This document shows, piece by piece, positions 47,515-64,000 of a DNA stretch of 64,000 nucleotides. Positions within the stretch are counted from its first letter, which is position 1. Every line of letters begins with the position of its first letter. This stretch comes from Microbotryum violaceum (taxonomy: Eukaryota), in the NCBI GenBank assembly GCA_001244265.2, contig CDLV01000019.1:372001-436000 (forward strand), in the 5' to 3' direction. Made by a program: the position numbers and the translations under genes. The notes beneath the pieces are model-generated. The model saw nothing but the letters and a program-made list of their open reading frames with translations. It was not told where the DNA came from and made no database searches.

Positions 47515-47626
47515 GGCTGACGGCTGACGGCTGACGGCTGACGGCTGACGGCTGACGGCTGACGGCTGACGGCTGACGGCTGACGGCTGACGGCTGACGG
47601 CTGACGGCTGACGGCTGACGGCTAAC
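47515..47626. repeat. Heptamer minisatellite (GGCTGAC)15 plus one GGCTAAC unit
   Basis: Perfect 7-bp units from 47515 to 47619 and a variant unit at 47620-47626. Confidence 0.97.
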
Positions 47627-48910
47627 GCGCTGACGGGGGATGCGCTGGTGGGGGAGGTGACTACGAGTCGAGTGGGGGGTGTCCAGGTGTTGGTGGGTAT
47701 TCGTGCTCAAATCTTGTCTCCAATCAATTGACTGCGTGTGGTCGCGTGGACGATGACGAAGACAGCGACGAGGGCGAGGCGCGACAGTGCAGCCTGAGAG
47801 GCATACCCCGAGTCGACGTGCCCAGCGGCAAGAGCTCGCTCGACCCAGCAGCGATGTGGGCTTGTGCCCGGCGACTCGTGCGAGTGAGAGATCCTTTTAG
47901 GCCAGGCCACATTCCCGAGCTCCCTGCGACAGTTTGTTTCTTATCATTCCTTCGTAGCTTAATGAACACACTTCACCTAGAGTTCCAGCAGTTTGGGACA
48001 AATATTGGACCGGCTGATTGGCAGCTGGTTCGGCCGACAATTCGGTTAATCTGCTCGGGCGAGAACGAACGAGTGCCCCATTGAAGGGCTGGCGCTGCGC
48101 ACAATCAGCTGACGTCTCTTTCTCCCACTGCTTTGCCCTCTCGTAGAAGCTCCACATTTACGACCAAGTCGGGAATAACGAACCCCCCACGCGAAGCCCT
48201 GGTCAAGGACAACATCACCGTCCACACCTCCTGTAAGTTATCCCCCGTATAAGTTTCTCGCCTTTATTCCGCTCGGCCCAAGATCACCCTCATCAGTCTC
48301 ATCCGGCCGGCGTTGATACCCATTGATCGCTAGGGGTCGTTCACTTTCCTTGCGCCCTCTGCTTTGGCTGCATCGACTCGACGAACTTTGCACGGTCGTC
48401 TCTCGCCTTTTTGAGCTTGTGATCCATACCATTGCCAGCAGGCTACACCAATTCCTAGCCGCACGGACATGAAAATTTCGCATCATCATAAATCCTGCAA
48501 TACACATGCTACCATATGGTCCTTGCAGATTACAAGTGAGTATACCAGCACCGAGATTACATAATTCAGTCGTGCATTGATCCGAGATCAAGTGCAAGGA
48601 CATGTCCGTTCATCTATGTAAGCCGCGCGGCCAGCCGCTGTTCGGATGCGCCATCGGCTACAGCCCGGTGGCAATTGATCACTCGGCCGGTGGGGCTCGG
48701 AGTCCGACAAGATTACGAGAGCTACAAAGAGTAGCCGGCCCCTGCAAATCATTTTCAGCTCATTAACTTACTTGAGAACTATGAAGGCACCAACCCATTG
48801 GACAGAGCTCAGCTCGGTGTCCAAGACAGCTTTTTCAGTGACTCGGGCCATGATCGACTTTAGCGAGCTCAAAATGGCCCAACATGGGCGGTCAGTGACT
48901 GCCAGATGCG

Positions 48911-48916
48911 CACGTG
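48911..48916. promoter_or_regulatory. CACGTG bHLH/Pho4-type box upstream of PPN1
   Basis: gCACGTGc about 140 bp before the PPN1 ATG; function inferred. Confidence 0.35.
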
Positions 48917-49056
48917 CACACTGGGAGCGACCTCAACCACCTCCGCCTGCTACATCCGTCCCTCGCTAGTCAGCGAACCGTCACACGACCAGGCGGCTCA
49001 AGGGCGTGGTGTCTTTGGATCATCCCAACTCGACCCTGATTCTGCGGAGAACGCAG

Positions 49057-51518
49057 ATGGCTTCCCCGGAAGGCTCACAACATAGACGAGGACGTCGATC
49101 GCAGTCTCGTCCTCGTCGTCAGGCGATCACTATCGCCGCCCTGGCGCCTCTGCTGCTCTCGTCTTGGTTCCTTTCGACCCATGCCTCACCAACACCAGCG
49201 CCCTCAACACCATTCACGTCCGAACCGATGCCTTTGGAGGGCCCCGTAGTCAAACTGCATGGCCGCTTCCTGCATCTGACCGACATGCATCCGGACCCGT
49301 TCTACTTGTTCAACTCGTCCGAAGCTACGAGCTGTCACACTCATGCACTCTCCAAGGGAAGCAGAGCTGGATACTGGGGAACGAGTGTTAGGTAAGCTAA
49401 CCTTCGATCCTCGTACTTGACGAGTATGTGATGGCGACTATAGCGGCTCCGCAAAGCTGGCTGAGTGACGAAGTGGGGGGTTCTCTAACGCCGAGCGGAG
49501 CGGCTGCAAATTGACGCACCATGACCGCACTGACTGGTGATTAAGAACCTTTCAGTGACTGCGATGCCCCCTTGACTTTGCTCAACTCGACCTTTGATTG
49601 GCTCGAACAACATTTCAAGGGCAAGGTCGACTTTGTTGTATGGACCGGGGATAATGCACGCCATGGTTCGTAAATATAGCCCCCACAAGATACGAGAGAC
49701 GAAATTCTGAATTAATGCTCTGTTCAAATTGTCATTTAATCAGACATCGATACTCGATTCCCTAGGTCTATGCCCGAGATTTACGAATTGAATCGATATA
49801 TTAGTTCGCGGATGCGTCAAACTTTTGGCAACAAAGTGCCGATTGTAACAAGCTTTGGCAACAACGGTCAATCACTCTCCAGGCCTCTCTTCTTCACCTT
49901 CGCAGAGCTGACCCCTTGCGACCCATCCGTAGACATCTTTCCGCACAACATCATGTTCGGCGGCCCCAGCGCCATAACGAGCGAGTTCCTCAAGTTGTGG
50001 AAGCACTACATCCCCGAAGAGCATCTGCACACCTTTGCTCGAGGCGGCTACTACTCGGTCGAGGCGATCCCGAACCAACTCGTGCTCGTCTCGCTCAACA
50101 CGCTCTACTTTTACGAGAACAATAAAGGCGTCGACGGCTGTCCTTCGTTCTCGCTCAGGTCTTCCTCATCGTCTTCTTTCAAGCGAAAGAAGGATGATGA
50201 TCCGGGGACAGAGGAACTGTTGTGGCTGGAACAGCAACTGTTGCTCGCTAGGATGAGGGGCATGCAGGTTTGGCTGACGGGTCATGTCCCGCCGACGCAA
50301 TCGAATTACTACGAGGGTTGCTATTCGAGGTATGGGGAGTTGATGTTGGCGTATCAGGATACCATCTTGGGGTGGGTGCTTTTATTCACTGCTTCCTCAC
50401 CCTTTGTCAAACACGCGCTCAATTCGCGGACCCGATCTCTCCACAGGGGCCTGTTCGGCCACATGAACGTCGACCACTTTTCCCTAATACAAGCCGACGA
50501 TGTCTTACCGCCCCCACGCAAGTCCAAGCAGCACAAGAAGACGAAGAAGCAAGATCGAGTCTTACACACCACGGGAAGTTCCACGACACTTGTCAACAAT
50601 TTGCTGCAACAGTTTCAGGGCTTGCCGAAGAGAAAGCACCTCAAGGAGAAGGATTATAGCGTCGTTCATATCAATCCGAGCGTCATCCCGACGTATTTAC
50701 CGACTTTTCGGGTTTGGGAGTTCAACACGACAGTTGGGGAGGGCAGTTTCCGGCCGACAGAATGGGCTACAGATGGTGTTAATGAATTCAGCAGCCGGAC
50801 GGACGAGGACGAGGACGTCGAGGACAAAGACGAGGACGAAGACGAATTGACGTGGGAAGGAGAGGAACGGGACGCCGTCCCGACGATTCCGCGGCTACTC
50901 GAAGTCGTCGCGTCACAGCTCAGAATCGGGTACAAGTTCTTCCGACGGTCGATGTCATCCGACGCCTCCCTTCCCGACATGGATATCACCAGGAAGAAGA
51001 AGACGAAGCACCGCAAACAACAACCCCGGCGACGCCTGCCGCGGTACTCGTCTCCCAACGCCCCAGGTCGATCGAACCGATTCCTCACTCCTCTCGGTTT
51101 CACTCAATACTACCTCGAACTGGATAAGGCGAACGAGTTTGAAGGATTTGGGTCCGAGGCGGCTTGGCAGAAGGGGGGGGATCGACCGCGGCCGGTGTGG
51201 AATGTCGAATACGTCACGATGCCGGCCGAGACCGTAGCGAGACGGTTGATGGAAAAGGGAGGAGACAGCGAAGAGACGGGTTTGGACCCCTTCGTCAGTT
51301 CGGCCGTTTGGCCAGCCGAGGTCTTGAACGCCACCCAGTCTGGCGGAAGCGTCGAGGATGTCGTCCAGATGCTTCGACAGTTGGATTTGACCCCTTACGA
51401 GCTGGACGACCTGACCCTTGGCTCTTGGCTCGGTCTGGCTCGTCGGATCGCCAAAGGGGGCAAGGCGTGGAAGAACTTTAGCAAGCGTATGTTTGTCAGT
51501 TCGGGAGCGGAGCCGTAG
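49057..51518 (+). CDS. PPN1: Endopolyphosphatase Ppn1 (calcineurin-like metallophosphoesterase)
   Basis: N-terminal hydrophobic anchor; [77 protein letters not shown]. Confidence 0.93.
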
Positions 51519-52310
51519 TAGCATTGTTGTCAAGCTCGTTCTTGTTGTAGCCTATTGTTGTATGTATATTTTAATTTATCGTGGGCTGAAGGACGCTCGA
51601 TCCTCCCCGGACCCGCCATTGAAAGTGTTCGTCATGACGCCGGAACAGCCAGGAATATTTGTCAGAAAAGGGGCAGCCGAGGGAAATCGGCCCATGTAAT
51701 GCTGCTTGAACTACTGCTTGAGTATCCACCAACTCCAAGCATGTTACCGGAGGTTTGAGGTTATGGGAGTCTTGACTGGGCGACACTCGGAGCAAGTTGG
51801 GCCGAGAAAGTGGAGCAAAATCACGTGATATGCTTCGCAAATGTGCATCTCGACTTGGCACAGCGACACGTCAAACGTCGCACCCAACTGGGCTTCCTCT
51901 CAATCTGGGTCCCGGATTCGTCGCCTCGTCACACCCGCAACATTGAATTTGTGAGTTATACTACTGAATGAGAAGGTAAAGAATCTCCTCAAATGTGCTC
52001 TTACCTGTTAATAAAGTATATAGTGGACTGTTCATCGTTCTCCCCTTTTAATAGACTGAAAAAGGGGAGGCAATATGTTAAACAAATAATCCTTCTTTTA
52101 ACATTGTGGGTTATGATTAATTAATTTCATTATGAGATAAAGTATTGACTATTCTTAATACCGTTTACAAATAAATTTGTAATTTTTCGTCATTAACTAT
52201 AGTTAATATTACATTAATTCTAGCTAACTTATATATCAGAAGTAAACTTGTCTATCGAAGATAAATTGTCAGCACTAATGCTTAATTCAGAGAACATTAG
52301 GTTATGAACA

Positions 52311-52409
52311 GTATTAGCCGAAACTAATCGTACACCATTTGATTTACCTGAAGCGGAATCTGAATTAGTAGCAGGATTCTTTCCTGAGCATTATTACCAT
52401 TTGTCTTTT
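52311..52409 (+). pseudogene. nad1: Mitochondrial nad1 fragment
   Basis: Translates [27 protein letters not shown], then LPFVF in a shifted frame. This is the conserved ND1 signature. Confidence 0.9.
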
Positions 52410-52458
52410 CTATGTTTTTATTTGGACTGTTCCCTAATATTATTTTGACGGATCTGCA

Positions 52459-52714
52459 CTATTCTGATGACTTTGATTATAGAGATTTAATTAAAGATGA
52501 CTATACTGATGACTTTGATTATAGAGATTTAATTAAAGATGACTATACTGATGATTTAATGCGTGTAGTCGTTGAGGATTCTTTATAATCAATTTCCTAA
52601 CTTTACAGATAAGGAATAGAATACATAAGTTCCCTGCTAACCATAGTAAGGACTTGGGTTATAGAGATTTAATTAATGATGACTATACTGATGACTTTGA
52701 TTATAGAGATTTAA
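52459..52714. repeat. 42-bp repeat (ctatactgatgactttgattatagagatttaattaaagatga), tandem and dispersed copies
   Basis: Copies at 52459-52500, 52501-52542, partial 52543-52554, and again at 52659-52714. Confidence 0.9.
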
Positions 52715-53028
52715 CGTCTCGTAAATAAACACAAGTTAGAACTACAAATACATATGCCTGACCGCCTCATATGTGCCCATTTTTTATTTTTTATTTTTTT
52801 GCTGCCATAGAGGATTGTGATTGTGACATCTTTTAGAATATAAAATGAATAAGTATGAGGCAAATGTAAATAAAAGAATTGTAAAAACTGCCGCAAAAAG
52901 ACCTAAATTAATTAAAGGTGTTTTTAAAAAAGGGCGCTTCTCTACAAGAAAATAAAAAAAAAGGGGCGAGTCGGGACTTTGCTCTCGTTCGAGAACATCG
53001 TTCTGCTCTTTCATCCAAGGTAGTGATC

Positions 53029-54339
53029 ATGTCCTCCTACCTCACGAACTGCTTGATCGTGTCGCTGTCGCCGGAGACGATTCACGAGGCGACCGAATGG
53101 CGCGTGATCCCTTGCCCTCCAAACTCCTCAGCGATCTATGATTCCTACTTCCTCGATAGATTTACCCTCGGCTGGGGTGGGACTACAAGACGACTCCATG
53201 CCACGAATCTGCGTGGGGTCGACGGCACGGCAATCAACTTCGTCGATATTAGCAACGCCCAGATTAACTTGCTCTGCTCGGTCCGCATTGATATGATGAG
53301 CATCGACCTCAGCCAGTCGTTCCTCTCCCATCAGTTTGGTTTTGCAGATAGCCCTGACTCGGACAAGACCATGGTGTGGACACCCGTACTGGATTCGCTC
53401 GTCAATGATGTGCAGTCGCGGCCAGGCTTGTCCCGCTACTTCGTCTTTGTTTCGTTTCATCCTATGCTGGGCTTCAACCCCGCTCTAGATGTGGCAACAC
53501 TTGCACGTGCAACCGTCATGGCTTCCAAGACCCACACTGCACTGACTTTAAAGGAATGGCAAGGGCTGCACAACTCCAAGCATCCTTACGACGTCAAATT
53601 CAGCTTCGGCTCGAGCTCGAACGAGCTCTGGGAGACGGCCGAATTCCTGCAGTCCAAGTCGTCGTACTGGGCCGATCTTTTCTCCTCTGGGTTTTCCGAA
53701 AGCGTCAAAAAACTTGATCTGAATGGACAAGAGCAAGTCACGAGCGATGTCGGGGTCGAAACTACCAAAAATGAGACCAACATCAGCAACTTCAACAAAG
53801 GCGGGTCCAAGTCGGATCAACCCCCTTCCTCGCAGAGCCAATGCACGACTTCGATCCACACCATTTCGATCGAGGATGAAGAGCTGTATCACCCCTATCG
53901 AATCATTTTATGCTGGCTCCGAACGGGTGAGATCAAGTTCCAATCTCTCGTCATCGACTGCCATCCGTCCGACGAAGGACGCGCCGACGCCGAACCCGAG
54001 TCGAAAGCCGCCTCGGATGTGCTCGGCTTCGACCCCGTCTGCCCCAAAGCAATCTACCGCCTAGCCCATTTCCTCGAACTGGAACAACTACAAACTCTGG
54101 CGTTAAGATCGATCGTCTCGCAGATCAAGGTCGAAAATGTCGCGTTGGAGCTGTTCGGCCAGCTCTCGACGGACTTTGACGAGATTCACAAGCGCGAGTT
54201 TGATTTCGCGATTCGGAATTGGGCAGTCGTCAAGAAGACGGCGGGGATGCAGTCGGTGCAGCAGTGGGTCAAAGAGAGAAGATTGCCCAATGCTTTACAG
54301 ACTCTTTTGGATGTGTCGCTTGCGTTGTCGAGCGCCTGA
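53029..54339 (+). CDS. Intronless BTB/POZ-domain protein
   Basis: PYDVKFSF...LWETAEFLQSKSSYWADLFSSGFSES; ILCWLRTGEIKF; CPKAIYRLAHFLELEQLQTLAL; ENVALELF. Confidence 0.8.
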   Translation: MSSYLTNCLIVSLSPETIHEATEWRVIPCPPNSSAIYDSYFLDRFTLGWGGTTRRLHATNLRGVDGTAINFVDISNAQINLLCSVRIDMMSIDLSQSFLSHQFGFADSPDSDKTMVWTPVLDSLVNDVQSRPGLSRYFVFVSFHPMLGFNPALDVATLARATVMASKTHTALTLKEWQGLHNSKHPYDVKFSFGSSSNELWETAEFLQSKSSYWADLFSSGFSESVKKLDLNGQEQVTSDVGVETTKNETNISNFNKGGSKSDQPPSSQSQCTTSIHTISIEDEELYHPYRIILCWLRTGEIKFQSLVIDCHPSDEGRADAEPESKAASDVLGFDPVCPKAIYRLAHFLELEQLQTLALRSIVSQIKVENVALELFGQLSTDFDEIHKREFDFAIRNWAVVKKTAGMQSVQQWVKERRLPNALQTLLDVSLALSSA

Positions 54340-54617
54340 AATCACTTCTTTGGTTCGCGATGGTGATGTATAGGGGCCTGTATCGTGACCGAGCTGGTGC
54401 CGCCGGGCGAGGCTCCTTCCGACCGTTGAGCGCTTGGCATATTTTTAGCCCTCAGTTCGAGAAGTATGAGGAGAAAAATTGACTTGACAATATGTGCCAA
54501 CTGAAGTAACACCCACAAGTACAATCTATGTGCTCATTGACACTATCTATCGTCAATAATGGCCCGCGGAAGCGCACGCGTCCGAAAACTGTCATTCATT
54601 TTGAAAAGCAGGAGCCG

Positions 54618-54623
54618 CACGTG
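54618..54623. promoter_or_regulatory. CACGTG bHLH/Pho4-type box upstream of the Ppx1-like gene
   Basis: gCACGTGc about 90 bp before ATG 54709; function inferred. Confidence 0.35.
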
Positions 54624-54708
54624 CCTGAACCCGGGTCTCGCTTTCGCTTTCGCCTTCGCTGATCATTGCTCTCCGTTCAGCCCGCGCACGCCTCCCGGGA
54701 CTGCAAAC

Positions 54709-56758
54709 ATGGTCGGCCCAAGTAGCCTGCTACAGGTTCTGGTCTCGTTGACCTTTCTCCCCGCACTTCTCGCGCTGCCCTCGCCGACTGCAGCGCCACA
54801 ACAACTGGTGCTTGTCCCCGACGAGGCGCGCCAAGCCCCCCCGACGATGCCGATGCCGGGCAAGAACGAGTCGGGCCATGGTCATTTCAGCAAATGGTCA
54901 CGTAAGACCAAGAAGCAGTTCCTCTACGATCTGTCGTATGCACCGGCCAAGGCACAGGATTGGGTCATCGTGATGGGTCCGTCTCTCTTCTTTCGAGTCG
55001 TGGCTCGTGCTTTGTCGTGTTCGGCTCCTTCGGGAGTCCGCGAGTTGACGAATGTGTGCTTTGCGCTGGGGGCTACAGGGAACGAAGCGGGCGATTTGGA
55101 CTCGATGGTCTCGGCTTTGGCCGTGTCGTATACGATGATGCATCTCAAGAAACCTGTCAAGGCTGTTGCACTCCTGCAGACAGAGCAAGGTACGTCACCG
55201 ATCAACGATCAACGCGACGCTGTTTCGCACGTTTGTACGGATCGGACATGACAAAGGTTCAGGTCAGCTGACCTCGAGGCGGAAATCTCTGCTTCTTCGA
55301 TCTGATATCCACTAGACGCGCTTTACCTTCGACCCGAGGTAAGTCAAATACAAGTCGCAGTCTTTCAAGTCTTTCAGTAGACTGATAATTTTGTGATATC
55401 CCTCACAGAACTCGTTGGCCCTTCACAAGGCGCGCATGGCTTCCCATCACCGGGATCTACTCACGATCGACGAATTGCTGATCAAGCCTCAAGACATGTG
55501 GCATCGCATCAAGGGGATCGCACTAGTCGATCATAACGTCCCAACTTCGGTCTGGGGTAACACGACCGTCGTCTCCATCATTGATCATCACACCGATCGC
55601 GGAGTAGCTCCCCACGCCTCGCCACGCATCGTTGAAGTGACGGCCAGTTGCACCTCGCTCGTCGCCAAGTGGATGCTCGACCTGTTCGACTCGGGCAAAG
55701 CGCAGGCCAAGAACGATCATTTGCCCCATGAGCTGATCGAGATCATGTTGAGGACGATCGCGATCGATTCATCGGGGTTGAAGAAGGCTACACCTATTGA
55801 TGAGGAAGCGACATTGGGCCTGTGGGCCAAATCCAAATGGAGCAAGCACCACTTTGAGCCACTCGAACCTTTCGTACGATCTCAGGCCGCCGGAGATGTC
55901 AAGGCAATCGATGAAGAAATCAAGAACCGTATGAAGGCGATCGACGACGAGCTTTCGCAAGCCAAAAAGAACCTCACCGGTCTCGATGTACGAGCCTTGC
56001 TCCGAAGGGACTGGAAGGGAGGAGTCCTCACCACCAAATCGGAGAAATACCCCCACCTCTCCCTCGGATTCGCTTCGGCCCCTGTGTCATTGGCCGAACA
56101 AATCGAACGAACGCCCGAAGGTTTCCCGCAAGAATGGTTCGCGATCGAGCGGGCTTGGACGGCCGAGATTGGTGCCGACGTCTCGGTTTGCTTGACTTCG
56201 TTCAAAGACGAGAAGGGCAAGAAGACGCGCGAGTTGGCGCTTGTCGTGGCGCACGGGTTCGGAAAGAGGTTGCACGAACATGCCGCTGATTCGTTGTTCC
56301 AGGTAAGAGGCTGGACTCGTCAATGAAAACTCTGCTCGAAGGGGTCGTCGGGTTTTTGTTCTGACGCGCGGCTGTTGCCCATATCAGACCCTCAAGAGAT
56401 CCATCGAGAACGCCGGGGTCGAAGATTTGCAAGTATGGGAGCGCCCAGACGGTATGTGCCCCTCGTTGCCCCACTTTTTACGGGTACTTGCTCACGTTTA
56501 ATCACCCCGTTCCACAGGCAAACCCCTATTGCCGCGAAGAGCCGTCTACCGACACCACGACAGCACCGCGTCGAGGAAGATGTGGCGACCAGGTTCGTGT
56601 TGGAAGATCTGCAGCTACAGAGACAGGCTGGCACACTGATTTTTTGCTCTTTCTGGTTACGTGCAGTGATTGAGAAGGCCGCGATGGAATGGACGGGCGA
56701 TGATGTCGATGACGATGACCCGTATCAACGTCGACACAAGCACCACGATCTGCTTTGA
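54709..56758 (+). CDS. DHH/DHHA2-family exopolyphosphatase (Ppx1/prune-like) with N-terminal signal peptide
   Basis: VM-GNEAGDLDS, LRPE-N, LVDHN, IIDHH, ASCTSLV, IAIDS, LLRRDWK; N-terminus MVGPSSLLQVLVSLTFLPALLALP. Confidence 0.88.
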
Positions 56759-57141: not shown

Positions 57142-60100
57142 CTAGTTCGCCGGCGTGGTCGCGTTGTTCTGACCCGTTAAAGAGGTCAAGAAATAGTGGA
57201 AGTCGATCGGGGAGTTGTTTAAGCCATAAGTGTAGATGAACCTCGAGGCCAAGAAACTGGAAAAGATTGAGTGCGCGTAGGTAGGGGGTAATCGAGCGGT
57301 GAGGGGTTCGAGACCGACTTGATCGACGAGAACCTTGGGTAAAGCTCGAGCCATGACGGCTTGACGGAGGTGCGCGTCATCGTAGAGGGAGGATTCTTCG
57401 AGCTCATTCTGCAACTTGATGAGCGATTGCGAGAGTTGATCTGAGAGGAGCGTGTAGGGCGTTCCGGTGCGTTCATGTTCGGCCCAGATGGTGTTGAATT
57501 CCGCGGTGGCGTTCGCCGAGATGGTTTGTTGGATCGAGCGCGTGTAGTTGAGGTAGAAGTCGCTGAAGCCGGAGCCGTTGGGCGATGTCATCAAGTCGAT
57601 GAAGGAGGCGTCGTCGAGTGACATGCCCGCCAAGACTTCGAGCGAAGACGAGGTGACACCACCCTTGTTCGCCGACGAATCACGGAACAAGATGACACCC
57701 TTCTTCTCGAGTTGCAAGCGTGCTGATTGGGTGACGAACAGGTTCGCACCTTCGACGAGGTACTTAAAATTGGGCACACCTTCGGAATCCCACAGCTTGG
57801 ACACGTTATTGACGTTGACGGACTCGGGTCGACCACCGCAGGGAACGAGGATGTCGGCCTTGTAGCGCAGGTGAGCACCGTTTCGGAAGTCCGTGCCATC
57901 GGCCACGACCTCGCCAGAGGGCAGGGTGATGTCCCGGTCGTCGACGAGGATGCGGTAACCGTCTTTGCTGAGCTTAGACACGTCAAAGTTGGAGATCATT
58001 TGACGCGCACGGGCGAGGCGGATCAACTCGGCGCGGTCGAGACCCTGAGGGTCATGGATTGTACCACTGCCGTCGATGATGGTGATCGTCTTGTCCTTGC
58101 TGAGCAAGATCTCGTCTGGTAAAGGTAAGATAAGCGGAATGGCAGGTCAGCATACGCTCGATGGAGAACACACCGCACGAAAGTTCACAACTCACTCGAT
58201 CCGAGATCACCATCGGGCCCACCAGTCTGGACCTTGGTGACTTCCTCCTCCTTGAGGCCAAGTTTTCTATAGATGCCGGTTGTGTACGCCCTTACGGAGA
58301 GCGAGGTCATACCGAACGCATCGTGTGGAATACCACCAAGCGTCGCTGCCGTCTTTCCAGTCGAAAACGATTTCCACCAAGGCGCTCCACGTTGTCGAGC
58401 ATGGTTCGCGGTCCAGTCCATCATATCGGCCGTGCCTTCATCAGGACCGAAGAAGAGGATCTCGGGCTTCTTGTACAAATCGACGACGGTCTCCTTGATA
58501 CCGGGGGATTGACCAGGCAAGAGCAAGTCGATGATGGCGTCGACGTATTTCTCGAAGCACGCTCGAGGATTTGCCCCAATGTCGGGCAAGATCGTTCCCT
58601 TGGATCCACCTTCGGGGATATCCTTGTTCTTGAGCGCTTGCGTCGTCGCGAGACCGTAGTTCTCGTCGAAGAGGTTGCGCTGGTTGATCGAGTAGGCTTC
58701 TCGGTTGCGCGACATGACGAGACGAATACCACCTCGGGCGACGTCCTTCATGCGCAAGTGGAATCCACGGAAACCGTCACCGACGACAAGGAAGAGACCG
58801 TAGGCCGGGGTAGGGTATTCCGAAGCAGGCAAGAAGCTAGGGTCGAGTCGGAACGAGATGGCGACCTTGGTCGGCGTGAAGAAGTTGGTCTTAAGGATCG
58901 CGTTGTTGAAAGTAACGAACGACTCGAGGATCTGCGCGTCATGTTTGTTGAGCACGTTCTTCTTGATATGGACGAGGAGCTCGTCGCTGGTCAAGACGGT
59001 GCCGGTCTTCAATCGGGCGTACGAAAGCGTGGGCATGACCTGGTTCGGGGTGTGCACGCTGTAGTAGTGCGTCATCGCGAACGAGATGTAGAGCAAACGA
59101 ATGATCTCGGGGTAGGCTTGCAGGGTCTCGAGGATCGATGCTCGTGTGAAGGTTTCTTGACGGAAGCGGGCTCGAATGTCGGACAAGACTGCGGCTTGGG
59201 CCGAATCGTTCTCGTCGAGCAGGTCCTTGAGCGCGGCGTATGAGGGCCCGAGGCGGTTGAGGAAGTGCTGCGCAAAGATCCAGCCAGAGTAGGCGTAGGC
59301 GGCCTCTTGGACCGCGAGCTTCGAGTGGGCCTCAAATAGGGGGTTGTTGGGGAGTACATCTGCCAACGTACATCGCCACGATCAGCACGGGGAGAGCCCT
59401 GAGCAATCAAGGTGTGATGGACGCTCACAGATGAGCGAAGCCTCCTTTGTGATTTGCAAGATACTGGCCTCGACGGGAGGACCGGAGAGAGGGCTCAGGT
59501 AGAGCGAGATGATGGTGACACCGTTAGAGAAGCTCTCTATAGTACGGGATCAAGGGACCAAGAATCAGTTTCTTCAGACGAAGTCTCTGGATCGCCAATC
59601 TCGCACCTACCGACGTATTTGCGCGTGGAGTAAAAGTTGTACGAATGGTATAAGTCGGACAGGGCCGAGAAGAAGGATCGGGTTCCTCCCATCTTGTAGG
59701 CAATCACGATACGGCGCTCGCGAGAGGCCTCGACTTCGTAAGCGGCCACCACGGGTCCCATTCTGTCATTGAAAAGAGTCGACGTCAGTTCCACGCATTG
59801 AACGATAAAGGGTCGAAGAAGTTACTAACCTCCTAAGAGCCTCGTCCATCGCCTGTTGGTAGATCTCGAGCGTGTAAGGCGTGGCCTTGTCCAAAAAGCT
59901 CTTGTCGGATACGCGCTTGATGTCAAGCTTGCTCTTGGCCTCTTCCTCGGTCGGGATCGGTTCGGCGAACTCGCATTTGGACATGAAGTAGCAACGCAAT
60001 TGTTGGGCGACGGTCGCGGTTGAAGAGACGTTCCCCGCGGCGCGGTAGGATTCGAGACGCCATGCGGACGAGGCGGTGGACTTGTCGAGGTAGTCTCGGT

Positions 60101-61177
60101 CGATGCGTTGTTCGTACTGCGGACCATCGACAATGGAGATACCCGGAGGAGAGGTGTAGATGAAGGTGGCGTTGCTCTGCAGAAAGGCGGAGTTGAGTCA
60201 GCTCATGGCGCTCTCAAATCTAGGCGCGACCCGTGACCCGTCCGCCTCGTGACCTGGCCCCTGGGGAGGCCGATCCTTTTCCAGCCCGAGCGGGGGGTTC
60301 GGTCTTGTGGTACCGGCATCCGAAAACTCACCTCTGATTCCTTCTCAAGCTTGATTTCGAGGTAGTCCTGGTGAGCGGCGTGGGCTTGGACTTTGGCACC
60401 GTAGAGAGACTGTGGTGGGGAGATGAGCGAGCGTCGAGGAGGACGGCGAAGCGGGGAGCGAGGTGGGGCCGCCGGAACACGAGGTTGAGACAAATCGATC
60501 ACGTGGACAAGTGAAAAGCGCGTTTGAGGCAATGTCAGTGAAGCTGCTCAAAGACTGATAATAGGGCTTTGTGATGCATGGTCGAAACACCGCCAATGTT
60601 GAAGTTACAACGCGTGGGAACGGCTCGGTCATCGTTAACAGGGGGCAAAGGCCCCCCCTCCCCCCTCCCCACTTGCGGAAACTATAATCGCACCAATCCC
60701 CATCGCGGCACGGAAGAGAACGAAAGCAAGTCGCGGAAGTACTGACCTCGACGTGATCCGCGCACGTCTCGGGCGACTCCTTCATAAAGTAGCCATTCTC
60801 GATGCCGAGGGAGGTGTAGAACCACGCGACCTCGCCTTCGACGAGCGGCTCGGGGATGAAGCCGTTCTCGCGGCAGATGGCGAGCACCTGCTGGCGCTGT
60901 TGGTCCTTGCCTTCAAAGATGACCTGCGGGGATATGAAGACGTTTCAAGAGTCAGTTCGAATGAGTTTTAGGTGGTGCCCAGCCCTGCGCGTGAGGCACG
61001 TGATACGGTTAAAGGCCCCTTGTGGCCCCATTTGAGGGGGGACGGTCACCTGATGATGAACGAACGGACCTTTGAATAGCCTGGTTCATCGCGCGAGATG
61101 GTATGGCTAGACGGCGACGGCGTGCGCGTGATGTCGAGCGAGGCAGCAAGGTGGGCCAAGGGGCTAAGTCCCGTCAT
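57142..61177 (-). CDS. GDH2: NAD-specific glutamate dehydrogenase (large type)
   Basis: GFIPEPLVEGEVAWFY; TNFFTPTKVAISFRL; FRGFHLR...ARGGIR; KNKDIPEGGSKG; FFGPDEGTA; GMTSLSVR; QTGGPDGDLGS; VPCGGRPES; VEGANLF; ANKGGVTSSSLEV. Confidence 0.96.
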
Positions 61178-63251: not shown

Positions 63252-64000
63252 TTACTTCTTTCTTTCCTCATTCTCCATAACCGTAGCTCCCGCTGGCCCA
63301 CCCCCACCCGTCGCCTGAGCCATCGCCAACGCCTCCCTCTGAGCCCTCCTCGCCTTCTTGGACTCATACTCATGCCATTCCCCTTTGACCAACCTCAACA
63401 CATCCGGGAATTCAGCCCTCGGTTCTTCGGTTGTGAAATACCTCATCTCCAACGCTTCCTCGGCAGTAGGTCTTGTCGAAGGGTTGAGACTCAATAGTCC
63501 TTCGGCCAATTCGAAAGCTCCTTCCGTGAGATGATGAGAAGCGAAGGTTTCACGAAGCGTAGAGGGTAGTGTTTGGGAGGGCTTTACGAGTTCGTACCAG
63601 GAAAGTTCTTGGACTTGGGGCCAGAGTGTGGGGGAGGGGGTGCCGAGGATGGAGAATATTGCTTCGAGTTGATGGATCTCGTCTTGGCCTTGGAAGACGG
63701 GACGGCGGGCGAAGAGCTCGAGGAAGATGCATCTGAAGGGGGTTGGAAAGCAAGAGATTAGCCTCAGAAGCATGTGTAGATCAAAGTAGCACCTTGACAG
63801 GACCGATCACTTACCCTGCAGACCATACATCGACCTCCGCACCATAAATAGTCGCACCAAATAGCAATTCAGGCGGTTTGTACCACTGCGTAATGACCCG
63901 ATTCGTATAATCGTTGCCCCTCCCTTGGGCATAGAACCTCGCGAGTCCGAAATCGGCAATCTTGAGCTCGCCATCTTTGCTGATGAGCAAGTTGGAGCCT
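63252..64000 (-). CDS. CTK1: CTD kinase Ctk1/CDK12-like; 5' part outside window
   Basis: GSNLLISKDGELKIADFGLARFY...DYTNRVITQWYKPPELLFGAT.YG.EVDVWSAG-CIFLELF...FQGQDEIHQL. Confidence 0.85.

What the first reader, a model, noticed from the sequence alone, without database searches (positions are those of the whole stretch)
48900..56758. Candidate polyphosphate-catabolism locus: PPN1 plus a Ppx1-like exopolyphosphatase, co-oriented, each with a GCACGTGC box
Seen: two unrelated polyP-hydrolase folds (metallophosphoesterase Ppn1 and DHH-family Ppx1-like) lie ~3.2 kb apart on the same strand. Only a NUMT and an intronless BTB gene separate them. Both have GCACGTGC 90-140 bp upstream of the ATG, and a further CACGTG lies at 51822. 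Known: in S. cerevisiae PPN1 and PPX1 are unlinked, and CACGTG is the Pho4 site. Inference: an endo- and an exo-acting enzyme, both entering the secretory pathway, may form a co-regulated polyP-mobilisation module that later insertions interrupted.
Basis: partly seen in the sequence, partly recalled or inferred. Interest (0 to 1): 0.75.

Follow-up and report, generated by a model that had tools for sequence, protein, structure and literature searches.

The report
Secretory exopolyphosphatase paralogue beside fungal PPN1
An anther-smut fungus has two real polyphosphate-degrading genes side by side, probably by chance rearrangement, and one of them is a little-studied Ppx1-like enzyme with an export signal that the yeast enzyme lacks.

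Summary
In a Microbotryum genome, PPN1 (692 aa) and a DHH/DHHA2 Ppx1-like gene (508 aa) are co-oriented 3.19 kb apart and spliced as modelled. GCACGTGC lies 139 and 84 bp before their ATGs, and a mosaic NUMT and a BTB-like gene lie between them. The 'conserved module later interrupted' is not supported. Near-adjacency was seen only in M. intermedium (5 locus tags apart). Of 18 other Microbotryomycetes, 14 have the genes on different contigs and 4 on one contig, 70 to about 200 genes apart where readable. In phosphate-limited Rhodotorula toruloides, PPN1 rises 1.4-fold and the probable orthologue of the DHH gene 1.1-fold (not significant), against 55-fold for PHO84. The box has some support: 2 of 3 related metagenome loci carry CACGTG 81–89 nt before the DHH start. 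The more interesting result is that the DHH gene is not the cytosolic Ppx1 orthologue. It belongs to a separate clade with signal-peptide-like N-termini and intact catalytic motifs, found in Microbotryomycetes, rusts, smuts and filamentous ascomycetes. It is probably a vacuolar-lumen or secreted exopolyphosphatase. My searches found no paper characterising this clade.

The parts
48910..48917 (.). GCACGTGC box, 139 bp before the PPN1 ATG and about 35 bp before the 5' end of the RNA contig (48953)
   Evidence: no variant listed in DNA runs X11 and X15; conservation in other species untested
49057..51518 (+). PPN1 polyphosphatase, 692 aa. Exons 49057-49391, 49556-49665, 49744-49866, 49933-50371, 50447-51518. 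Basic then hydrophobic N-terminus; metallophosphoesterase motifs DxH76, GD143, GNxD187, GH306, GHxN340
   Evidence: Pfam Metallophos on orthologues P0124 and P0125
51822..51827 (.). CACGTG with TCACGTGA flanks, 300 bp after the PPN1 stop; about 200 bp before the BTB ATG if the NUMT is subtracted; no evidence of function
51950..52960 (.). Mosaic NUMT made of short mitochondrial pieces, including a nad1 fragment (52290-52394) and a 42-nt repeat
53029..54339 (+). Intronless 436-aa BTB-like gene, covered by an RNA-like contig; contains a GCACGTGC at 53503
   Evidence: no Pfam hit
54617..54624 (.). GCACGTGC box, 84 bp before the DHH ATG; CACGTG sits at a similar distance in loci L035 and L037
54709..56758 (+). 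Signal-peptide DHH/DHHA2 Ppx1-like phosphoesterase, 508 aa. Exons 54709-54976, 55079-55189, 55316-55338, 55409-56302, 56388-56451, 56518-56592, 56667-56758. Motifs GNEAGDLDS90, VDHN174, DHH193, AIDS252, RRDWK333, SRK472

Best explanation
These are two independent, expressed genes of polyphosphate turnover that came close together in the Microbotryum lineage by reshuffling within a chromosome they already shared. They are not a conserved cluster. PPN1 is the ordinary secretory-pathway (vacuolar-type) polyphosphatase. The DHH gene is a paralogue of cytosolic Ppx1 that gained a signal peptide. It most likely enters the ER and removes terminal phosphate from polyP with the Ppx1 metal centre, in the vacuole lumen or at the cell surface, so it could finish off the short chains made by Ppn1. 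Each gene has its own proximal CACGTG box, probably read by a Pho4-type bHLH factor, with at most modest induction. SHOWN: gene structure, splicing, fold, catalytic motifs, separate clade, no adjacency outside Microbotryum. INFERRED: signal-peptide function, compartment, substrate, identity of the transcription factor, and the history of the rearrangement.
For: Splicing: 10 of 10 modelled introns seen. Fold: best Foldseek match is yeast Ppx1 2qb6 (E 3.6e-21, target TM 0.75, 21% identity), well ahead of family II pyrophosphatases (E about 3e-10); the motifs align with yeast Ppx1. Clade: 44 of 88 rows form a long-stemmed group with 100% support; 17 of 23 rows at 100/100 in IQ-TREE. An uncharged hydrophobic N-terminal stretch is present in 98 of 120 near homologues against 8 of 44 rows outside the clade (threshold 1.6; 69 and 5 at 2.0). 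R. toruloides has two 'exopolyphosphatase' genes, and the 1,488-nt one equals the 495-aa clade member in length. Synteny: M. intermedium tags 6118 and 6123. Four other Microbotryomycetes have both genes on one contig but far apart: NB124-2 128 tags, R. pacifica 70 tags, R. toruloides scaffold S09 e07624 and e03026; R. kratochvilovae has no readable tag. Fourteen have them on contigs of different length. Box: CACGTG 81 and 89 nt before the ATG in 2 of 3 Microbotryomycete-like loci, against 91 in the window (binomial p 0.008 within 200 nt).
Against: No dedicated signal-peptide predictor was available; the call rests on hydropathy and inspection. No localisation or activity data. Many assemblies are fragmented, and synteny was read from locus tags and contig lengths, not DNA. 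Box conservation rests on 3 loci, one of which (L039) lacks it, and was not tested for PPN1. The R. toruloides RNA change for the probable orthologue is 1.10-fold (FDR 0.34), which argues against strong PHO control. The gene match there is by length only, and that promoter was not seen. Selection for the linkage within Microbotryum is not excluded.
Confidence: 0.62

Rival explanations
1. One reading: an old, co-regulated PPN1 + exopolyphosphatase module that the BTB gene and the NUMT later interrupted.
For: Co-orientation, the same 8-mer in both proximal promoters, linkage kept in M. intermedium, and a shared contig in 4 other Microbotryomycetes and in 2 of 6 smut species. The NUMT looks young (nearly identical to high-depth contigs).
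Against: No adjacent pair in 17 readable non-Microbotryum assemblies. 0 of 42 loci hold PPN1, though only 16 have 4 kb or more upstream and only 1 of those is Microbotryomycete-like (positive control 120 of 120 queries hit the window). M. intermedium has 4 tags between the genes. The conserved neighbour found lies on the 3' side: a kinase at window 63.4-64 kb that directly follows the DHH gene in L039 and L040.
Confidence: 0.07
2. The linkage is recent but selected: in Microbotryum the two genes were brought together and are co-induced under low phosphate or in the host.
For: The linkage persists between this genome and M. intermedium (about 91% and 83% identical proteins). Both promoters carry an identical GCACGTGC.
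Against: Each gene has its own promoter, so linkage is not needed. The interval tolerates an unrelated transcribed gene and a NUMT. Gene order decays slowly within a genus. No co-expression data are in hand.
Confidence: 0.14
3. The boxes are not Pho4 sites: they are read by another bHLH factor or are incidental, and both genes are nearly constitutive. This concerns regulation only and can hold together with the best explanation.
For: 3 of 5 GCACGTGC sites in the window are in ORFs or an intron. R. toruloides changes are 1.43-fold and 1.10-fold against 55-fold (PHO84) and 275-fold (PHO89). Yeast Ppx1 is expressed irrespective of Pi (PMC7381174).
Against: Positional conservation in L035 and L037. 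G/C flanks match the yeast Pho4 preference (recalled). VTC genes and PHO81 also rise only 1.9-2.6-fold in the same data set. Yeast PPN1 is PHO-controlled.
Confidence: 0.35
4. The DHH protein is an extracellular enzyme with another phosphoanhydride substrate (pyrophosphate, tripolyphosphate, nucleotides or inositol pyrophosphates), used for scavenging or at the plant interface. This concerns substrate and place only.
For: The named clade members include many plant-associated fungi. No KDEL/HDEL-like ending in 0 of 122 near homologues. An 'Exopolyphosphatase' class is listed among predicted Puccinia effector classes (PMC9370660 Table 3; not shown to be this clade). Only 21% identity to yeast Ppx1.
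Against: The fold is much closer to Ppx1 than to family II pyrophosphatases, and the basic RRDWK and SRK motifs of the second domain are each kept in 118 of 122. The clade is also present in free-living yeasts. The probable R. toruloides orthologue is seen in the proteome table at 26% coverage.
Confidence: 0.25

Closest known systems
S. cerevisiae Ppx1 (DHH/DHHA2 exopolyphosphatase, PDB 2qb6-8) and C. neoformans Xpp1
   Same: Two-domain DHH + DHHA2 fold; aligned GNE..D.DS, VD, DHH, I.D, K/R-D.K motifs.
   Different: Ppx1 is soluble, outside the vacuole and Pi-independent (PMC7381174). This protein has a signal-peptide-like N-terminus and a pro-like linker, 21% identity, and falls in a separate clade; R. 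toruloides has a second, shorter exopolyphosphatase gene.
S. cerevisiae Ppn1/Phm5 and C. neoformans Epp1 (calcineurin-like vacuolar polyphosphatase)
   Same: Metallophosphoesterase motifs, likeness to acid sphingomyelinase, hydrophobic N-terminus, homologues annotated as endopolyphosphatase.
   Different: Nothing substantial seen; localisation and processing were not tested.
PHO regulon genes with Pho4 CACGTG sites
   Same: CACGTG in the proximal promoter; yeast PPN1 is PHO-controlled (PMC7381174).
   Different: Binding is untested; induction in a relative is weak or absent.
Fungal primary-metabolic gene clusters such as GAL, DAL or nitrate clusters (recalled)
   Same: Functionally related, unrelated folds lying close together.
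   Different: Two genes only, unrelated genes between them, and adjacency not seen outside one genus.

Membership tests
Ppx1/Prune DHH exopolyphosphatases | DHH plus DHHA2 domain architecture and fold | tested here: met
   Pfam DHH 34.7 bits and DHHA2 36.3 bits, both above cut-off, for P0001; Foldseek top hit 2qb6
Ppx1/Prune DHH exopolyphosphatases | Metal and catalytic motifs (N..D.D, D, DHH, D) and basic second-domain motifs | tested here: met
   Aligned to 2qb6. Among 122 near homologues: DxDS 122, DHH 122, IxxD 113, RRDWK 118, S/GRK 118; the strict second-motif pattern matched 89
Ppx1/Prune DHH exopolyphosphatases | Processive Pi release from polyP, no activity on PPi or ATP | not testable with these tools
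   Needs an enzyme assay
Cytosolic Ppx1 orthologues | No signal peptide; branches with the canonical fungal Ppx1 proteins | tested here: not met
   Hydrophobic N-terminus and separate clade; yeast Ppx1 itself was not in the trees and the outgroup rows are unnamed
Ppn1 endopolyphosphatases | Calcineurin-like motifs and full-length homology to annotated Ppn1 | tested here: met
Ppn1 endopolyphosphatases | Vacuolar localisation and endopolyphosphatase activity | not testable with these tools
   Only an N-terminal hydrophobic segment is seen
Conserved metabolic gene cluster | Adjacency conserved across related genera | tested here: not met
   0 of 17 readable non-Microbotryum assemblies adjacent; 0 of 42 loci with PPN1
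PHO regulon | Conserved CACGTG in the promoter | tested here: inconclusive
   DHH gene: 2 of 3 Microbotryomycete-like loci and 3 of 14 other loci within 200 nt; PPN1 not tested
PHO regulon | Induction by phosphate limitation | tested here: inconclusive
   Relative only: PPN1 1.43-fold (FDR 1.2e-5), probable DHH orthologue 1.10-fold (FDR 0.34)
PHO regulon | Pho4 binding or dependence | not testable with these tools
   Needs ChIP, DAP-seq or a deletion mutant
NUMT | Mitochondrial sequence embedded in a nuclear contig | tested here: met
   nad1 fragment; high-depth pieces; nuclear-depth contigs run into both edges

The most novel reading that the evidence does not exclude
Many fungi have an unrecognised secretory-pathway exopolyphosphatase: a Ppx1 paralogue with a signal peptide that supplies the exo-activity for vacuolar or extracellular polyP, is under a conserved CACGTG box in Microbotryomycetes, passed horizontally from a smut-like donor to filamentous ascomycetes, and in Microbotryum has been joined with PPN1 into a nascent two-gene phosphate-mobilising locus.
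Probability: 0.2. Interest if true: 0.65.

Novelty: new variant of a known kind. Interest (0 to 1): 0.36.

Why it matters
As a gene cluster the finding is probably incidental. The DHH protein matters more. In the yeast model, Ppx1 lies outside the vacuole where polyP is stored, and its loss does not change polyP (PMC7381174). A Ppx1-type enzyme routed into the secretory pathway would give many fungi a direct exo-activity on luminal or extracellular polyP. It can be tested in R. toruloides, which appears to have both paralogues. Annotation that calls both genes 'exopolyphosphatase/PPX1' hides the difference; the text of PMC5968551 names the other paralogue as PPX1.

Tried and rejected
No whole genome is held for this window, so there is no genome-wide survey of the box in known PHO promoters and no check for a cytosolic Ppx1 in this genome. 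The cluster-member look-up could not be made, so missing locus tags (R. kratochvilovae PPN1, Melanopsichium, M. saponariae DHH gene) stayed unread. Metagenome records could not be searched beyond the fetched flanks. No RNA holder is on record; X19 is 'RNA?' by guess, but its contigs skip GT..AG introns. Contig depth cannot rank expression and was not used for that. X17 covers the stretch in short unspliced pieces and was not used. tblastx with sum statistics gave spurious neighbour hits and was repeated without them. The first IQ-TREE run timed out. A regex for variants of the second motif failed. N-glycosylation sequon counts barely separate the clades (1.84 against 1.45 per protein). Five look-ups in earlier scan findings returned nothing. 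Rejected: an assembly artefact for the NUMT (nuclear-depth contigs enter both edges); the DHH gene as the cytosolic Ppx1 orthologue; the 51822 box as part of a PPN1/DHH module. No complex prediction was run, because no binding is claimed.

Full report
1. The observation. The window is from a Microbotryum: the DHH model matches BQ5605_C018g08650 of M. silenes-dioicae at 504 of 508 positions. Spliced models give PPN1 of 692 aa in five exons (49057-51518) and a DHH protein of 508 aa in seven exons (54709-56758), 3,190 bp apart on the + strand. I laid 4 of the 24 listed runs. Contigs of run X19, a diverged relative, skip all 10 modelled introns and cover the BTB ORF from 53253 with no intron-like joint listed. 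GCACGTGC lies 139 and 84 bp before the two ATGs, just upstream of where the X19 contigs begin (48953 and about 54676; contig ends are not mapped starts). CACGTG is not enriched in the window (19 against 16.75). GCACGTGC is (5 against 1.0), but three of the five sit in an ORF, an intron and the BTB ORF. The NUMT is real and mosaic: G+C about 0.30, a nad1 fragment, many short high-depth pieces, and nuclear-depth contigs of X11 and X15 running into its edges. The BTB name rests on ESM Atlas neighbours (0.96; BTB on 13-53% of members), not on Pfam.

2. Synteny. I paired hits by species (best 120 listed of 446 and of 282). Nineteen Microbotryomycetes had both genes listed. M. intermedium has them five tags apart (BQ2448_6118 and 6123), so four annotated genes lie between. 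Fourteen have them on contigs of different length, and in the nine of these with both tags the gap exceeds 400. Among six smut species with both genes, Testicularia (ids 79 apart) and Melanopsichium share a contig length and four do not. This is indirect evidence from tags and lengths, and many assemblies are fragmented. None of 42 metagenome loci around DHH homologues holds a PPN1 match, while 120 of 120 PPN1 queries hit the window. Only 16 loci have 4 kb or more upstream, and one of those is Microbotryomycete-like. The one shared neighbour found is a kinase, directly downstream in L039 and L040 and at 63.4-64 kb in the window. The pattern fits an old shared chromosome with internal reshuffling, and near-adjacency limited to Microbotryum.

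3. The box and regulation. I could place an ATG with upstream DNA in 17 of 42 loci; six duplicates, L007, and short or cDNA-like loci were dropped. Two of three Microbotryomycete-like loci have CACGTG at 81 (L035, GCACGTGC) and 89 nt (L037) before the ATG, against 91 in the window; L039 has none. The chance of 2 of 3 within 200 nt is 0.008. Of 14 other loci, 3 have one within 200 nt (p 0.03). The PPN1 box could not be tested across species. Against strong co-induction: in phosphate-limited R. toruloides (PMC5968551; passages and supplementary rows read), RHTO_03914 (PPN1, 2,154 nt, equal to the 717-aa hit) rises 1.43-fold. RHTO_07799 (1,488 nt, equal to the 495-aa clade member) rises 1.10-fold with FDR 0.34, and RHTO_07023 1.15-fold. 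PHO84 rises 55-fold, PHO89 275-fold, VTC genes and PHO81 1.9-2.6-fold. The proteome row for RHTO_07799 suggests 1.9-fold at p 0.10; I did not see that sheet's sub-headings. The match is by length only, and the RNA table holds one count column per condition.

4. The DHH protein. The only solved sequence match is yeast Ppx1 (E 1.5e-12). The AlphaFold model (pTM 0.77) matches it best by fold (E 3.6e-21), ahead of family II pyrophosphatases. The catalytic and basic motifs are kept. The N-terminus reads as a signal peptide followed by a disordered linker. By a hydropathy rule, 98 of 120 near homologues have such a stretch against 8 of 44 rows outside the clade (69 and 5 at a stricter threshold); the first motif lies at a median position of 82 against 43. 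The near homologues form a long-stemmed clade with named members in Microbotryomycetes, rusts, smuts and filamentous ascomycetes; no Agaricomycotina name appears among the 120 listed. In a 23-row tree the ascomycete rows nest among smut rows. A single basidiomycete clade is rejected (p-AU 0.0025) and a single smut clade is marginal (0.044). This used LG+G4 without mixture, few rows, an unnamed distant outgroup, and groups tested after I had seen a first tree, so horizontal transfer is only a lead; hidden paralogy is possible.

5. How it most likely works. Ppn1 cuts long polyP inside the secretory or vacuolar lumen (established for yeast; PMC7381174, passages read). The DHH enzyme enters the ER and trims terminal phosphates with a Ppx1-type metal centre, either in the same lumen or outside the cell (inferred). 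Each gene is driven from its own promoter, probably with a bHLH input at CACGTG (inferred), so physical linkage is not needed. The rivals and their odds are listed in their field; they address different aspects and do not sum to one.

6. Literature. Ten searches were run. Those aimed at a secreted or paralogous fungal Ppx1 (21, 48, 54, 55) and at Microbotryum polyP (49) listed no paper that characterises this clade or this locus, judged from listings and abstract starts. PMC9370660 lists an 'Exopolyphosphatase' class among predicted Puccinia effectors (table passage). PMC11977306 and PMC7445287 (passages) treat Cryptococcus Xpp1 and Epp1; the latter calls yeast Ppx1 the cytosolic orthologue of Xpp1. 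PMC5713455 (one passage) was not relevant. The library lacks most subscription papers. That yeast PPN1 and PPX1 are unlinked and that Pho4 prefers G/C flanks is recalled.

7. Verdict. The cluster is probably incidental. The signal-peptide Ppx1 paralogue is a new variant of a known kind and deserves a biochemical test. Interest 0.36.

Noticed in passing
P0056, P0063, P0066, P0070, P0104, P0115: Ascomycete members of the signal-peptide Ppx1 clade nest among Ustilaginomycotina sequences; basidiomycete monophyly is rejected at p-AU 0.0025 under a simple model. Possible horizontal transfer.
   Followed up: partly
window 51950-52960: The NUMT is a patchwork of 60-90-nt pieces from different mitochondrial places, with a 42-nt repeat; it may separate the BTB gene from a TCACGTGA site at 51821.
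   Followed up: partly
window 47517-47625: Tandem run of a 7-nt unit (about 15 copies) just upstream of the ArfGAP-like gene on the minus strand.
   Followed up: no
window 57142-60200 and 63400-64000 (minus strand); L039, L040: An NAD-glutamate dehydrogenase gene follows the DHH gene tail to tail; a kinase further on is the direct downstream neighbour of the DHH gene in two related loci.
   Followed up: partly
window 55850-55915: The Microbotryum DHH proteins carry a 22-residue insertion before the second domain that the other 28 aligned Microbotryomycetes lack, and an acidic/His-rich C-terminal tail.
   Followed up: no
P0265, P0267, P0304, P0307, P0339: Some Ppx1-like proteins outside the clade have their own N-terminal membrane-anchor-like segments, suggesting repeated retargeting of this family.
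   Followed up: no
window 24925, 26343, 53503: Three further GCACGTGC sites, in an actin-related ORF, in a likely first intron of an EF-2/Snu114-like gene, and in the BTB ORF.
   Followed up: partly
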